In this document: positions 8,528 to 48,127 of the stretch, in pieces | Position numbering within the stretch: the first letter of the stretch is position 1 | Layout: each line of letters opens with the position of its first letter | DNA from: a virus | Lineage: Duplodnaviria > Caudoviricetes | DNA length: 55,662 nt | Reading direction: 5' to 3' (one strand) | Virus record (IMG/VR): IMGVR_UViG_3300024261_000038 | Location: 1 to 55,662 of that record | Made by a program: the position numbers and the translations under genes | The notes under the pieces: model-generated | Seen by the model: only the letters and a program-made list of their open reading frames with translations | The model's database searches: none | Told to the model about the DNA's origin: nothing

Positions 8528-8751
8528 TGCAATTAGAAACAGTAATAAATAAAACGTTAAGATATCTAGACTCAAGAATAGAAGCACTGTCTATATCCGT
8601 CACATCTGGTGGGGTTGACAGTATGGAAAATTACAAGTATATGATAGGACAAATAAACGCCTACGAGGCAACTAAACAGGAAATCTCTAACCTGCTAAAC
8701 GATAAGGAGCACAATGAAGGAACAGTCATCGATATTAACACCAAACAATAA
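8527..8751 (+). CDS. Hypothetical protein
   Basis: Coupled 74-aa helical ORF before groES. Confidence 0.6.
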   Translation: MQLETVINKTLRYLDSRIEALSISVTSGGVDSMENYKYMIGQINAYEATKQEISNLLNDKEHNEGTVIDINTKQ

Positions 8752-9127
8752 AATTATTGGTGTAAAAAAATCAGAGAAAAAAGAAGAGAAAGAACCTAAG
8801 TTACCAAAACCTACTGGGTGGAGGATGATAGTTTTACCTTTTAAAATGAAAGAGAAAACTAAAGGTGGATTAGTATTAGCTGAAACAACTTTGGAGAGGC
8901 AACAAGTTGCATCTCAAGTTGGATTAGTTTTAGCTATGGGCCCACAATGTTATAAGGATAAAGAAAGATATCCTGAAGGTCCATGGTGCAAGGTCAATGA
9001 TTGGATAATGTTTGCACGTTATGCTGGATCACGGATCAAGATAGATGGCGGAGAAATGCGTCTTCTAAACGACGACGAAGTGTTAGCAACAATTGATAGT
9101 CCAGAGGACATCTTGCATGAGTTTTAA
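8714..9127 (+). CDS. groES: Co-chaperonin GroES (Cpn10 family)
   Basis: PTGWRMIV, KTKGGLVL mobile loop, VLAMGP, FARYAG, LLNDDEVLA; AAGGAG RBS. Confidence 0.9.
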   Translation: MKEQSSILTPNNKIIGVKKSEKKEEKEPKLPKPTGWRMIVLPFKMKEKTKGGLVLAETTLERQQVASQVGLVLAMGPQCYKDKERYPEGPWCKVNDWIMFARYAGSRIKIDGGEMRLLNDDEVLATIDSPEDILHEF

Positions 9128-11225: not shown

Positions 11226-12137
11226 ATGGCTATATCACGATCACAACTAGTTAAAGAACTAGAGCCAGGTTTGAATGCACTATTCGGCCTGGAATACAAA
11301 CGTTATGAAAATCAGCATGCTGAAATTTATAACGAGGAATCATCTGACAGAGCTTTCGAAGAGGAAGTTATGTTATCTGGTTTCGCAAACGCACAAGTAA
11401 AAGGTGAAGGTTCTGGAGTTTCATTTGATGAAGCACAAGAAACTTTCACAGCTCGTTACACTCACGAGACTGTAGCTTTAGCGTTCGCAATCACTGAAGA
11501 AGCGATTGAGGACAACTTGTATGATAGACTTGCGTCTAGATATACAAAAGCTTTAGCTAGATCTATGAGTAATGCTAAACAAGTAAAAGCAGTTGAACCA
11601 CTGATTCAAGGTCTTCCAACTACGGATAACTTTGATTCAGGTGACGGTGTATCTTTATTTAATACATCACACCCAACAGTGTCTGGAACTTTTTCTAACA
11701 CTTTAACAACTCAAGCTGACTTAAACGAAACTTCATTAGAACAGTCGATGATTGACATCGCGGCTATGACTGATGAAAGAGGTTTAAGAATTGCTGCTAG
11801 AGGAGTAAAAATGATTATTCCTTCTGAGCTACAATTCACAGCTGAAAGATTGATGAAGTCTCAAGGTAGAACTGGAACAGCTGATAATGATATCAATGCA
11901 ATCGTATCTATGGGTATGGTTCCTCAAGGTTATAGAGTGAACAATTACCTAACAGACTCAGATGCATTTTATATCTTAACAGACATTCCTAATGGAATGA
12001 AAATGTTCAACAGAGCTCCATTGACAACTGCAATGGAAGGCGACTTTGATACTGGAAACGTTAGATACAAAGCTAGAGAAAGATACAGCTTCGGCGTATC
12101 AGACCCTAGAGGTATCTTCGGCGTTGAAGGTGCGTAA
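11226..12137 (+). CDS. Major capsid protein (HK97 fold)
   Basis: MAISRSQLVKELEPGLNALFG N-terminus and DFDTGNVRYKARERYSFG C-terminus; strong RBS; followed by a terminator. Confidence 0.88.
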   Translation: MAISRSQLVKELEPGLNALFGLEYKRYENQHAEIYNEESSDRAFEEEVMLSGFANAQVKGEGSGVSFDEAQETFTARYTHETVALAFAITEEAIEDNLYDRLASRYTKALARSMSNAKQVKAVEPLIQGLPTTDNFDSGDGVSLFNTSHPTVSGTFSNTLTTQADLNETSLEQSMIDIAAMTDERGLRIAARGVKMIIPSELQFTAERLMKSQGRTGTADNDINAIVSMGMVPQGYRVNNYLTDSDAFYILTDIPNGMKMFNRAPLTTAMEGDFDTGNVRYKARERYSFGVSDPRGIFGVEGA

Positions 12138-12151
12138 GCATAATTAAATTT

Positions 12152-12182
12152 TGTGGCCGGACATAGTTCGGCCACATTTTCT
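12152..12182 (+). terminator. Rho-independent terminator after MCP
   Basis: TGTGGCCGGAC-ATA-GTTCGGCCACA stem-loop followed by TTTTCT. Confidence 0.75.
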
Positions 12183-12200: not shown

Positions 12201-12458
12201 ATGAAACTATTCACCATTACAATTTGGGCATACGATCATTACGCAAAATTTAATGTTTTGTCGGAAGATAATGCTATTTCTCTTGAAAAATCTATCCTTG
12301 ACAAGTTGGGAGAAAAGAGTATAAATTGGGAATATCTTGGTATATCATATGATAATCAAGTAAACAGAATAACCTATGAGGAGGTTGTTGATGATACAAG
12401 ACCTATACAAAGCAAAAAGGTCCTTGGAGTTGAAGTGGGAACAGGAGCATCTATCTAA
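12201..12458 (+). CDS. Hypothetical protein
   Basis: 85-aa ORF after the terminator; overlaps the next gene. Confidence 0.5.
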   Translation: MKLFTITIWAYDHYAKFNVLSEDNAISLEKSILDKLGEKSINWEYLGISYDNQVNRITYEEVVDDTRPIQSKKVLGVEVGTGASI

Positions 12459-12600
12459 TGATAAGTATACTCTTGAAATGGTCAGGATCGATGACAAAAT
12501 TAAAGAAGTCATTACTGAGATCAAACTGGCTGAAGCTGAAGTTGCTTACAAGCAAAATAGCGTTGAAGACGCTGCTCCACAAGTTTCTGTAGCTACTTAA
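12391..12600 (+). CDS. Small coiled-coil hypothetical protein
   Basis: GAGGAGG RBS at 12378-12384 favours ATG 12391 (MIQDLYKAKR...). Confidence 0.6.
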   Translation: MIQDLYKAKRSLELKWEQEHLSNDKYTLEMVRIDDKIKEVITEIKLAEAEVAYKQNSVEDAAPQVSVAT

Positions 12601-12648
12601 TCAAAAGCTACATCGTTGGAAAAATTCCACTCCACACTACAGGCTCTC

Positions 12649-12677
12649 TTGCACTCTACTGAAAACTAGTATATACT
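12649..12677 (+). promoter_or_regulatory. Sigma70-type promoter
   Basis: TTGCAC-17 nt-TATACT. Confidence 0.65.
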
Positions 12678-12683
12678 TTTGGC

Positions 12684-12759
12684 ACTATACATAAATTAAT
12701 ATTCTGCATAGACGCAGTATAGTCGACGGCCTAGAGACTATGTAGAATTTAACTAGGAG
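12684..12759 (+). ncRNA. Candidate cis-regulatory 5' leader RNA (double pseudoknot overlapping the SD)
   Basis: Interleaved pairings 12684-90/12717-23 (7 bp), 12701-11/12738-48 (11 bp, one G-U), 12730-34/12753-57 (5 bp, overlaps AGGAG). Confidence 0.6.
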
Positions 12760-12766
12760 AATAATC

Positions 12767-13285
12767 ATGGCAAACACTACGTTTTCAGGACCGGTCATTT
12801 CTAAAAATGGCTTTGTAAATACAGGTCCTGGTATGACTGTTAGCTTAACAGCTGACACTACATTAACAGTCGCTACACACGCTGGCAAAATTTTACTTAC
12901 AAATGATGCAGATGGTAAATTTACTTTACCTTCAATCAATGTAAATGCAAATGGCGCATCAGCAGGTGATAATGACGTTAATAACTTAAACAACATTGGT
13001 GCAACTTTTCATTTTTATGTGGAAACTGCTGCAACTGATATGGACATCTTAACTGATGGTACTGACAAATTTAAAGGTGGTATCATGGTAGCTGTAGATG
13101 ACGGTTCTAAAAAAGCTTTCATTCCAGCTGCAACAAATGATGTTATAACTATGAATGGTTCTACACAAGGTGGAATCGTTGGTAGCGTAGTATCTTTTAC
13201 AGCGATTGATACTGCTACATACTTAGTCCACAGTTCTTTACTGCTTGGATCAGGTACAATAGTAACACCTTACGCTGACGCGTAA
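12767..13285 (+). CDS. Putative virion structural protein
   Basis: MANTTFSGPV start, T/G/A-rich, strong RBS, followed by a hairpin. Confidence 0.6.
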   Translation: MANTTFSGPVISKNGFVNTGPGMTVSLTADTTLTVATHAGKILLTNDADGKFTLPSINVNANGASAGDNDVNNLNNIGATFHFYVETAATDMDILTDGTDKFKGGIMVAVDDGSKKAFIPAATNDVITMNGSTQGGIVGSVVSFTAIDTATYLVHSSLLLGSGTIVTPYADA

Positions 13286-13296
13286 TAAATAATTAG

Positions 13297-13326
13297 TGTG
13301 GGGCTCCGGCCCCACATATTAATTTT
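13297..13326 (+). terminator. Stem-loop, probable (leaky) terminator
   Basis: TGTGGGGC-TCCG-GCCCCACA followed by TATTAATTTT. Confidence 0.6.
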
Positions 13327-48005: not shown

Positions 48006-48019
48006 AATTTAAAAGCTCA

Positions 48020-48126
48020 AGGGCGTCCAAATCTGCCAATGGCATTTCCCTGTACGTTAGCGATGACCGAAAGGTAGCAACCTGGAGTTTGGCCGGCTGT
48101 GAGTACGTCGACGGAAAGCAGCTGGT
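48020..48126. ncRNA. Candidate structured non-coding RNA
   Basis: GC-rich intergenic segment with several stems, including ACC-GAAA-GGT and GCCGGCTG/CAGCTGGT. Confidence 0.5.
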
Positions 48127-48127
48127 T

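What the first reader, a model, noticed from the sequence alone, without database searches (positions are those of the whole stretch)
12684..12759. Double-pseudoknot 5' leader that starts at the predicted TSS and can occlude the Shine-Dalgarno: riboswitch-like element in a phage structural operon
Seen: the promoter TTGCAC-17-TATACT ends at 12677, putting +1 near 12684, where P1 begins. P1 ACTATAC(12684-90)/GTATAGT(12717-23); P2 ATTCTGCATAG(12701-11)/CTATGTAGAAT(12738-48); P3 CCTAG(12730-34)/CTAGG(12753-57). Both P1 and P3 cross P2, and P3 overlaps the SD AGGAG of the gene at 12767. The joining segments contain GAC three times. A hairpin follows the gene, suggesting a single-gene unit. Inference: a compact translational switch (ligand- or protein-responsive, possibly autoregulated by the encoded virion protein) or a small ribozyme.
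Basis: partly seen in the sequence, partly recalled or inferred. Interest (0 to 1): 0.8.

Follow-up and report, generated by a model that had tools for sequence, protein, structure and literature searches.

The report
Pseudoknotted leader of phage spike gene
A small, doubly knotted piece of RNA at the very start of a marine phage's capsid-spike-like gene message is real, widely conserved and related to a known but unexplained RNA motif, and it most likely sets how much of that protein is made.

Summary
Window 12684-12757 (+) can form P1, P2 and P3 exactly as described, and related phages keep all three helices through compensatory changes: 97.5% of cells paired against 18-39% in slid controls, and 17 of 20 pairs changed on both sides. 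An untrimmed alignment gives 92.9%. The window is an HTVC023P-type pelagiphage. The element fills the leader from a conserved -10 box to the Shine-Dalgarno of a 172-aa gene. That gene's protein models as a homotrimer with a capsid-spike or tailspike N-domain fold. No Rfam family matches the element. In sister phages the same slot, after a Mu-gpT-like capsid gene, holds Rfam RF03012 Mu-gpT-DE, an orphan motif (23 of 23 loci). Both forms share three junction GACs (49 of 54 and 27 of 27), and hybrids exist. In Mu-gpT-DE the matching helices hold the SD and, probably, the start codon. I read the element as a rewired, double-pseudoknot relative of Mu-gpT-DE that controls translation in cis. The effector is unknown. 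A ribozyme role has no support.

The parts
11226..12137 (+). Major capsid protein gene (Mu gpT-like); the element lies downstream of it
   Evidence: Pfam PF25209 (E 6.9e-12) and PF10124 Mu-like_gpT (E 1.5e-5); phrog_371 major head protein
12152..12176 (+). Intrinsic-terminator-like hairpin with T run after the capsid gene
   Evidence: 11 pairs, 7 GC, tail TTTTCTAAAT
12646..12658 (+). Conserved block CTCTTGCACTCTA holding the -35-like TTGCAC (12649-54); unique in the window
   Evidence: Conserved in all clades except the HTVC023P and type-X clades. One exact match in the window. Function inferred.
12672..12677 (+). -10 box TATACT; its TATA is invariant or nearly invariant among 77 upstream sequences
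   Evidence: A7 and A9 invariant; T6 and T8 in 90% or more. Spacing to P1 is constant at 6-7 nt in the alignment, except in the L001 type. Not called by the consensus scan.
12684..12690 (+). P1 5' strand (predicted first transcribed bases, about 12682-12684)
   Evidence: P1 is 94.2% paired, with 6 of 7 pairs changed on both sides. The TSS is inferred only.
12691..12703 (+). L1, an A/U-rich linker of variable length (6-17 nt across relatives). In this phage 12701-03 extend P2.
12704..12711 (+). P2 5' strand, the 8-bp core conserved in all relatives (11 bp here, from 12701)
   Evidence: P2 is 99.5% paired, with 8 of 8 pairs changed on both sides
12712..12716 (+). J2 ACGCA. G12711-A-C12713 is GAC number 1. 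A and C are invariant.
12717..12723 (+). P1 3' strand
12724..12729 (+). J3 CGACGG, holding GAC number 2 (12725-27)
   Evidence: CGACGG in 34 and AGACGG in 9 of 54
12730..12734 (+). P3 5' strand CCTAG
   Evidence: P3 is 98.9% paired, with 3 of 5 pairs changed on both sides
12735..12737 (+). J4 AGA. G12736-A-C12738 is GAC number 3.
   Evidence: AGAC in 45 of 54
12738..12745 (+). P2 3' strand, 8-bp core (extends to 12748 here)
12746..12752 (+). L5, an A-rich linker. Its length is held at 5-8 nt across relatives, measured from the 8-bp P2 core.
12753..12757 (+). P3 3' strand CTAGG; its AGG is the first three bases of the SD
12755..12759 (+). Shine-Dalgarno AGGAG, 7 nt before the ATG
   Evidence: GGAG columns invariant
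12767..13285 (+). 172-aa gene (MANTTFSGPV...). Capsid-spike or tailspike N-domain-like fold, modelled as a homotrimer. Its body is swapped between related phages.
13296..13317 (+). Conserved GC-rich hairpin after the gene, not followed by a U tract. Probably a 3' stabiliser or weak terminator.
   Evidence: present with compensatory changes in 21 of 22 printed relatives

Best explanation
The element is the whole 5' leader of the mRNA for a trimeric capsid-spike-like protein of an HTVC023P-type pelagiphage. From about the first transcribed base it folds into three helices in the order P1a-P2a-P1b-P3a-P2b-P3b, which is a double pseudoknot. The helices hang on a junction with three conserved GAC triplets. 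It is a rewired relative of the orphan Rfam motif Mu-gpT-DE, which occupies the same slot in sister phages.

Shown: the fold is conserved, it lies on the + strand, and it is tied to this one slot.

Inferred: it acts in cis on translation. The last and weakest helix, P3 (5 bp), holds AGG of the SD. In Mu-gpT-DE the matching helices hold the SD and probably the start codon. A ribosome can therefore load only when the fold opens.

Also inferred: the junction is conserved across different wirings, which suggests that an effector binds there and sets how firmly the ribosome site is held. I rate a protein as more likely than a small molecule. One candidate is the conserved N-terminal bundle of the spike trimer, which would give negative feedback.
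For: Structure: 97.5% paired with 17 of 20 pairs covarying, and 92.9% on an untrimmed alignment. Variants with wholly different helices in the same order were verified by script.

Strand: within P2 there are 31 G-U or U-G cells against 2 non-pairs.

Specificity: the CM finds one copy in the window, at 81.8 bits, with the next hit at 18.1 bits. Element anchors were found in 173 of 176 loci with the gene start. CM hits occur in 24 of 24 family-B loci that have upstream sequence.

Junction: all three GACs are present in 49 of 54 class-I and 27 of 27 Mu-gpT-DE leaders.

Sister motif: 23 of 23 type-X loci reach the RF03012 gathering score. All 37 lie directly after a capsid gene 64-69% identical to the window's. 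There, CCUG/CAGG includes the SD and UAGCC/GGCUA includes the G of the start codon and codon 2, with one compensatory change at a synonymous site and one wobble. Hybrids join the two forms.

Protein: the model has pLDDT 84.8. The best solved-structure match is the phage Pa223 capsid spike, E 9.3e-5. The trimer model scores 0.95 against a best control of 0.00. That mark was reached by 20 of 30 known same-chain pairs and 1 of 23 single chains. The runs agree in at least 96% of contacts, the partner pLDDT is at least 91, and residues 1-24 lie in the interface. The N-terminal conservation is at protein level, because third codon positions vary.
Against: No transcript start, expression level or binding was measured. 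The RNA-library contigs laid on the locus gave no ends.

SD overlap is not universal. There is none in the HTVC023P clade, and the SD lies 4 nt away in L154 and L197.

The junction is not invariant. J3 and J4 vary between subtypes, and one lineage (3 of 54 sequences) has lost all three GACs while keeping the helices.

The P2 and P3 helices of Mu-gpT-DE that hold the ribosome site hardly vary, so they have little covariation support of their own.

The leader starting at +1, together with a conserved hairpin after the gene, fits a plain stabiliser equally well.

The link between a trimer and three GACs is numerology until it is tested.
Confidence: 0.5

Rival explanations
1. Constitutive leader with no effector. 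A compact 5'-terminal fold leaves no single-stranded 5' tail for 5'-end-dependent RNases. Together with the hairpin after the gene, it brackets a long-lived message and gives a fixed, context-independent rate of initiation for a gene whose body is often swapped.
For: The first helix starts 6-7 nt after the conserved -10 box in nearly all clades. A conserved, covarying GC hairpin without a U tract follows the gene. SD overlap is not universal. One lineage lost all three GACs but kept the helices. A Pelagibacteraceae single-cell genome that carries such a phage contig encodes an RNase J family protein, 400.7 bits against a cut-off of 400. The gene body is replaced between phages while the leader stays.
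Against: A simple 5' hairpin would do the same job. Seven or more unpaired junction bases are conserved across two different wirings, which points to specific recognition. In Mu-gpT-DE the SD, and probably the start codon including UUG starts, are paired. That lowers translation rather than securing it.
Confidence: 0.28
2. Small-molecule or ion riboswitch. The three-GAC junction is an aptamer, and ligand binding stabilises P3 and turns translation off.
For: The pattern is covarying helices around conserved unpaired bases. A weak helix overlaps the SD. From recall, small pseudoknot riboswitches that hold the SD are known, among them preQ1-II, SAM-II/V, SAM/SAH and guanidine-III.
Against: It was found in only one gene slot of one phage group. 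All 4 true matches among 80 bacterial or archaeal genome loci are phage contigs. The junction varies among close relatives. The gene is structural, not metabolic. No Rfam riboswitch family matches.
Confidence: 0.13
3. Self-cleaving ribozyme. From recall, the order of strands resembles that of pistol: a hairpin whose loop pairs downstream, crossed by a further helix.
For: Only the compact pseudoknotted topology and the conserved junction.
Against: No ribozyme family appears at E up to 10. The linker L5, which would correspond to the cleavage region, is variable and A/U-rich. Cleavage would cut the leader from its own SD for no evident gain.
Confidence: 0.03
4. Free-standing small RNA or 3' element of the capsid gene, as the Rfam type 'sRNA' and the name 'downstream element' imply.
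For: Rfam files the sister motif as Gene; sRNA. The motif always lies downstream of the capsid gene.
Against: A terminator, or small ORFs, and a conserved -10 box lie between the capsid gene and the element. The element runs straight into the SD and ATG with no terminator between, and the Rfam model itself extends to the AUG.
Confidence: 0.04

Closest known systems
Mu-gpT-DE RNA motif (Rfam RF03012; orphan motif from marine metagenomes, function unknown)
   Same: Same genomic slot: after a Mu-gpT-like capsid gene and directly before the MA(N/K)TTF... gene. Both start just after a -10 box and run to the SD. The central helix is flanked by G|AC on one side and GA|C on the other, and there are three GACs. 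The segment before the third GAC holds CUAG or UAGCC. Hybrid forms link the two.
   Different: The Rfam model does not see the window's element, even at E up to 10, nor any of the 10 class-I or hybrid loci tested at E up to 1. In Mu-gpT-DE, P1 is a local hairpin inside a 4-bp closing helix that is itself the SD-holding helix. In the window, the 5' strand of P1 lies upstream of P2, giving a second pseudoknot. P2 is 8-11 bp and free of the SD, and a separate P3 touches the SD.
Pseudoknotted translational operators bound by proteins: T4 gene 32 leader, E. coli alpha-operon (S4) and rpsO (S15) leaders. Recalled; gene 32 is also cited in PMC10690425, passages seen.
   Same: Pseudoknot(s) in a 5' leader at or near the ribosome site. 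For gene 32, the example is a phage mRNA with the knot at its 5' end.
   Different: No sequence or model match; Rfam has no hit. The proteins made here are virion spike-like, not nucleic-acid binders. No binding has been shown.
SD-holding pseudoknot riboswitches (preQ1-II/III, SAM-II/SAM-V, SAM/SAH, guanidine-III, NAD+-II; recalled)
   Same: Small size, a pseudoknot whose 3' strand reaches the SD, and conserved unpaired bases.
   Different: No Rfam match. One phage gene slot only. The junction varies among close relatives. The SD is not always included.
5'-terminal stabilising stem-loops (E. coli ompA leader and others; recalled)
   Same: Base-pairing begins at or next to the first transcribed base.
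   Different: Those are simple hairpins. Here there is a double pseudoknot with a conserved junction, and the start site is only predicted.

Membership tests
Rfam RF03012 Mu-gpT-DE | Scores at or above the family's gathering score (49 bits) with the Rfam covariance model | tested here: not met
   No RF03012 match in window 12500-12900 at E up to 10 or in the whole window at gathering score. Positive control: 23 of 23 type-X loci score 49.9-71.1 bits.
Rfam RF03012 Mu-gpT-DE | Lies downstream of a Mu gpT-like major head gene (the name's meaning is recalled) | tested here: met
   The capsid gene 11226-12137 hits PF10124 Mu-like_gpT. The element starts 547 nt after it, with two small ORFs between. 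In the HTVC023P clade it follows the capsid gene directly.
Rfam RF03012 Mu-gpT-DE | Closing helix CCUG/CAGG around a local hairpin (consensus structure printed by cmscan) | tested here: not met
   one search gives the model structure. In the window, P1 is pseudoknotted with P2 and no CCUG/CAGG helix exists.
Rfam RF03012 Mu-gpT-DE | Conserved junction GAC...UGAC...GAC and direct run into SD and AUG | tested here: met
   GAC at 12711-13, 12725-27 and 12736-38; SD at 12755-59.
Riboswitch (any class) | Conserved, covarying aptamer fold | tested here: met
Riboswitch (any class) | Near-invariant ligand-pocket bases in all representatives | tested here: inconclusive
   A33, C34, A52 and A66 are invariant in A2. 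J3 and J4 differ between subtypes, and 3 of 54 sequences lack all three GACs.
Riboswitch (any class) | Expression platform that hides the SD or forms a terminator in one state | tested here: inconclusive
   AGG of the SD lies in P3 in the window and most relatives. It does not in the HTVC023P clade or in L154 and L197.
Riboswitch (any class) | Direct, selective ligand binding | not testable with these tools
   Needs in-line probing or ITC.
Riboswitch (any class) | Association with genes of one metabolic theme, usually in cellular genomes | tested here: not met
   Only before spike-like virion genes on phage contigs.
Self-cleaving ribozymes in Rfam (pistol, hatchet, twister, twister-sister, hammerhead, HDV-like) | Match to the family model | tested here: not met
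   No such match at E up to 10.
Autogenous translational operator | The encoded protein binds its own leader | not testable with these tools
   Indirect evidence only. The leader co-occurs with a conserved N-terminus across unrelated bodies.

The most novel reading that the evidence does not exclude
The three-GAC junction is a binding site with pseudo-threefold character for the bundled, conserved N-termini of the free spike trimer. Trimers not yet mounted on capsids would lock the fold and shut off their own translation. This would be the first autogenous translational control of a virion surface protein in a tailed phage, and it would assign a function to the orphan motif Mu-gpT-DE. Alternatively, the junction is the aptamer of a phage-only riboswitch class.
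Probability: 0.2. Interest if true: 0.8.

Novelty: new variant of a known kind. Interest (0 to 1): 0.62.

Why it matters
[quoted passage not shown] This leader may therefore be among the commoner structured RNAs in the surface ocean.

The work links an unannotated double pseudoknot to the orphan Rfam motif Mu-gpT-DE. It shows that both are 5' leaders of the next gene rather than 'downstream elements' or small RNAs. It also identifies that gene as a trimeric, cassette-like, capsid-spike-like protein.

Together this gives a testable model: ribosome-site capture on a three-GAC junction. It also gives a natural series of rewired folds that keep one junction, which is useful for studying how RNA topology evolves.

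Tried and rejected
1. Nested MFE folding of the single sequence finds only P2 and scores no better than shuffles. It cannot see pseudoknots and was not used as evidence.

2. It has no discriminating power here.

3. RNA-library runs were all held as contigs. They gave no molecule ends, and one contig bridges the promoter and the leader. Nothing can be said about the TSS or expression. Gaps in cover are not evidence.

4. The first AlphaFold model, from a 28-row mixed alignment, was poor (pLDDT 45.4) and was discarded. The 46-row alignment A4 gave 84.8.

5. A PDB sequence search with the family profile found nothing at E up to 1. Pfam and PHROGs give no function for the protein.

6. A 15-mer scan of bacterial and archaeal genomes returned mostly chance matches. 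Only 4 of the 80 loci returned are true, and all 4 are phage contigs.

7. RNA-level conservation of the first codons was rejected, because third positions vary freely.

8. A DNA-level palindrome or opposite-strand RNA was rejected, because wobble pairs are tolerated on the + strand only.

10. Literature searches for pelagiphage together with riboswitch, pseudoknot or RNA motif, for Mu-gpT-DE and for RF03012 found no functional study. Only one methods paper names the motif (PMC7657543, passages seen). The main text of the discovery paper (PMC5737381, term search) does not mention it. Supplements were closed. So Table S3 of PMC12753301 (expression class of HTVC027P gp62), the supplement of PMC5737381 and the 8495 IMG/VR candidates of PMC10690425 could not be checked. 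The double-pseudoknot form may be listed there as an unnamed candidate.

Full report
**1. What is in the sequence**

The window is an IMG/VR virus record of 55,662 bases. It is related to Pelagibacter phages HTVC027P (74.1% nucleotide identity over 95% of a 1.3-kb query) and HTVC023P.

Every coordinate in the finding checks out:
- TTGCAC at 12649-54, then 17 bases, then TATACT at 12672-77.
- P1 at 12684-90 with 12717-23.
- P2 at 12701-11 with 12738-48, with one G-U pair.
- P3 at 12730-34 with 12753-57.
- GAC at 12711-13, 12725-27 and 12736-38.
- SD AGGAG at 12755-59, and ATG at 12767.

P1 crosses P2, and P2 crosses P3. P1 and P3 lie side by side. The strand order is therefore P1a-P2a-P1b-P3a-P2b-P3b.

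Single-sequence nested folding shows nothing unusual (MFE -13.6 kcal/mol, z -0.61), as expected for pseudoknots. Rfam has no match on the element at gathering scores or at E up to 10.

**2. Is it more than chance?**

I fetched the homologous gene with its upstream DNA from IMG/VR, using three divergent protein queries, and from three GenBank phages. Simple sequence anchors for the element were found in 173 of 176 loci that hold the gene start. The three misses were one locus with too little upstream DNA, one contig that begins in adapter-like sequence, and L185, which has a different leader (see section 4).

The 54 distinct element sequences were aligned by MAFFT (A2). Their ends were cut with structure-informed anchors. 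On this alignment:
- 97.5% of 1079 cells form standard pairs, against 17.7-38.7% when the 3' partners are slid by 1-3 columns.
- 17 of 20 pairs show changes on both sides.
- The covariation score is 0.587 against 0.205 for shuffles, and 0 of 500 shuffles reach it.
- P2 is 99.5% paired, with 8 of 8 pairs covarying.
- P1 is 94.2% paired, with 6 of 7 pairs covarying.
- P3 is 98.9% paired, with 3 of 5 pairs covarying.

The three 'unpaired' cells in P3 come from one lineage that is misaligned by one column.

An untrimmed, purely sequence-based alignment of 77 upstream regions (A1) still gives 92.9% paired, against 21-41% slid.

In the HTVC023P clade, P1 is CCUAG/CUAGG or ACUAG/CUAGU, and P3 is GUAUAG/CUAUAC. 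Further relatives have wholly different helices in the same order. One example is CUGGGA/UCCCAG, CUAUAAGG/CCUUAUAG and CUCAAAA/UUUUGAG. These were checked by script.

Within P2 there are 31 G-U or U-G cells against 2 non-pairs. The folded molecule is therefore the + strand RNA, not DNA and not the opposite strand.

A covariance model built from A2 finds one copy in the window, at 81.8 bits. The next hit scores 18.1 bits with E 0.3.

**3. Setting**

Upstream lies a Mu-gpT-like major capsid gene at 11226-12137. It is followed by a canonical terminator at 12152-76 and two small ORFs.

The TATA of the -10 box is invariant or nearly so among 77 sequences. It sits a constant 6-7 nt before P1 in nearly all of them. 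A block around the -35 position, CTCTTGCACTCTA, is conserved in most clades. It occurs once in the window.

In the HTVC023P and type-X clades, a terminator and a TATAAT-like box directly precede the leader. The message therefore probably starts at about 12682-84. This is inference. The consensus scan did not call the promoter, and the RNA-library contigs gave no ends.

After the gene, a GC hairpin, mostly with a UUCG-type loop, is conserved with compensatory changes in 21 of 22 printed relatives. It lacks a U tract, and the next gene's SD follows within about 10-25 nt.

The gene encodes a 172-aa protein with no Pfam or PHROG function.
- With a 46-row alignment it models at pLDDT 84.8.
- The best solved-structure match is the capsid spike of Pseudomonas phage Pa223 (9ny6_C, E 9.3e-5, TM 0.49). 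Tailspike and baseplate N-terminal domains follow. BFVD matches include tail-fibre and Mtd N-domain proteins.
- A three-copy model scores 0.95 against a best control of 0.00. That mark was reached by 20 of 30 known same-chain pairs and 1 of 23 single chains. The runs agree in at least 96% of contacts, and the partner pLDDT is at least 91. Residues 1-24 of all copies lie in the interface. The model supports trimerisation but does not show it.

In related phages with capsid proteins 77-82% identical, the body of this gene is replaced by unrelated sequence. Only the N-terminal MA(N/K)TTFxGxV is kept. That conservation is at protein level, because third codon positions vary. The gene is thus a swappable surface-protein cassette between a conserved leader and a conserved hairpin.

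**4. The sister motif**

Of the best 80 IMG/VR loci for one of these protein families (family C), the leaders divide as follows:
- 25 have the element by the covariance model.
- 9 more are double pseudoknots with other helices, parsed by hand.
- 9 are hybrids.
- 1 is truncated.
- 36 carry a different, shorter leader, here called type X: UCCUG|AC-[hairpin]-UGAC-AC-UAGCC-AAGA|CAGG-AG...AUGGCUA.

Type X is Rfam RF03012, Mu-gpT-DE. All 23 loci tested reach its gathering score, at 49.9-71.1 bits. None of the 10 class-I or hybrid loci tested do.

All 37 type-X loci (the 36 above plus L185) lie directly after a capsid gene 64-69% identical to the window's.

Both forms keep G|AC after the 5' strand of the central helix, NGAC after P1, and GA|C before the 3' strand of the central helix. 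All three GACs are present in 49 of 54 class-I and 27 of 27 type-X sequences.

In type X the central helix CCUG/CAGG contains the SD. UAGCC can pair with GGCUA, which is the G of the start codon, the Ala codon and one further base. The inner hairpin covaries (5 of 6 pairs). The other two helices hardly vary. Their support is one compensatory change at a synonymous third position, one wobble and one compensatory insertion.

The hybrids have the pseudoknotted P1 of the window's form and the GCCAAGAC segment of type X.

I conclude that the window's element and Mu-gpT-DE are two wirings of one leader family. The literature held here names Mu-gpT-DE only in a methods paper (PMC7657543, passages seen; searches). 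The main text of its discovery paper does not discuss it (PMC5737381, term search). Supplements were closed.

**5. How it most likely works**

Shown: a conserved + strand fold occupies the whole leader of one gene slot.

Inferred: it acts in cis on translation. P3 is only 5 bp and holds AGG of the SD in the window and most relatives. In Mu-gpT-DE the matching weak helices hold the SD and probably the start codon. Some of those leaders have UUG starts that would be fully paired. About seven unpaired junction bases persist across two wirings and many helix replacements. This suggests specific recognition by an effector that sets how firmly the ribosome site is held.

I rate a protein as more likely than a metabolite. 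The element is confined to one phage gene slot. All 4 true matches among 80 bacterial or archaeal genome loci are phage contigs. The junction also varies between close relatives.

Feedback through the variable body of the encoded protein is unlikely. Feedback through its conserved N-terminal bundle is possible but untested.

The main rival is a constitutive leader that shields the 5' end and, with the 3' hairpin, stabilises the message:
- For it: the start at +1, the 3' hairpin, the clades without SD overlap, and the lineage that lost all three GACs.
- Consistent with it: an RNase J family gene in a Pelagibacteraceae single-cell genome that carries such a phage contig.
- Against it: the conserved junction and the paired ribosome site of the sister motif.

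A ribozyme, a free small RNA and a DNA-level signal have little or no support.

**6. Verdict**

The element is not a member of RF03012 by the Rfam model, but it is that motif's rewired, double-pseudoknot relative. It is a new variant of a known but uncharacterised kind.

My confidence that the structure is real is about 0.95. My confidence that it is a cis translational control element with an effector is about 0.5.

Noticed in passing
window 48013-48127 (+): Full-length match to Rfam RF02976 Flavobacterium-1 RNA (95.6 bits, gathering score 58.9, E 2.2e-17) in a pelagiphage genome. It lies among small ORFs. A motif named for Flavobacterium in a SAR11 phage is unexpected.
   Followed up: no
window 12646-12658 (+): The 13-base block CTCTTGCACTCTA around the -35 position is conserved across phages whose downstream protein is only about 35% identical. 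It occurs only once in the window. It may be a site for an activator or a special sigma factor rather than a plain -35 box.
   Followed up: partly
window 12767-13285 and loci L197, L204, L212, L244: The gene after the leader is a replaceable cassette. Capsid proteins are 77-82% identical, but the gene bodies are unrelated (129 to 256 aa) and keep only the N-terminal MA.TTF.G.V. RNA-library contigs also jump from the leader or N-terminus to the region after the gene (joints 976 to 1531 and 1029 to 1515 on L142).
   Followed up: partly
window 13296-13317 (+) and relatives: A GC hairpin, mostly with a UUCG-type loop, is conserved with compensatory changes after the gene. It has no U tract, and the next gene's SD follows closely. 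It looks like a 3' stabiliser or processing barrier rather than a terminator.
   Followed up: partly
loci L388, L374, L399, L383, L386, L400, L379, L406, L373 (Mu-gpT-DE type): Nine of 27 distinct Mu-gpT-DE leaders read UUG where the others read AUG. With UUG, the proposed helix with the UAGCC segment could extend over the whole start codon.
   Followed up: partly
locus L067, first 37 bases or so: This IMG/VR contig begins with sequence that looks like a sequencing adapter and is fused to the middle of the element. It is probably an assembly artefact in a public record.
   Followed up: no
window 12201-12458 and 12376-12600 (+): Two small ORFs between the capsid gene and the leader overlap in different frames. 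Both have relatives in other phages of the group, but they are absent from the HTVC023P clade.
   Followed up: no
window 8714-9127 (+): By eye, the 137-aa ORF resembles a GroES-type co-chaperonin. This was not tested with any tool.
   Followed up: no
whole window: ARAGORN finds no tRNA genes. GC content dips to 27-28% with reversed skew at about 20-24 kb, which suggests a block on the other strand or of other origin.
   Followed up: no
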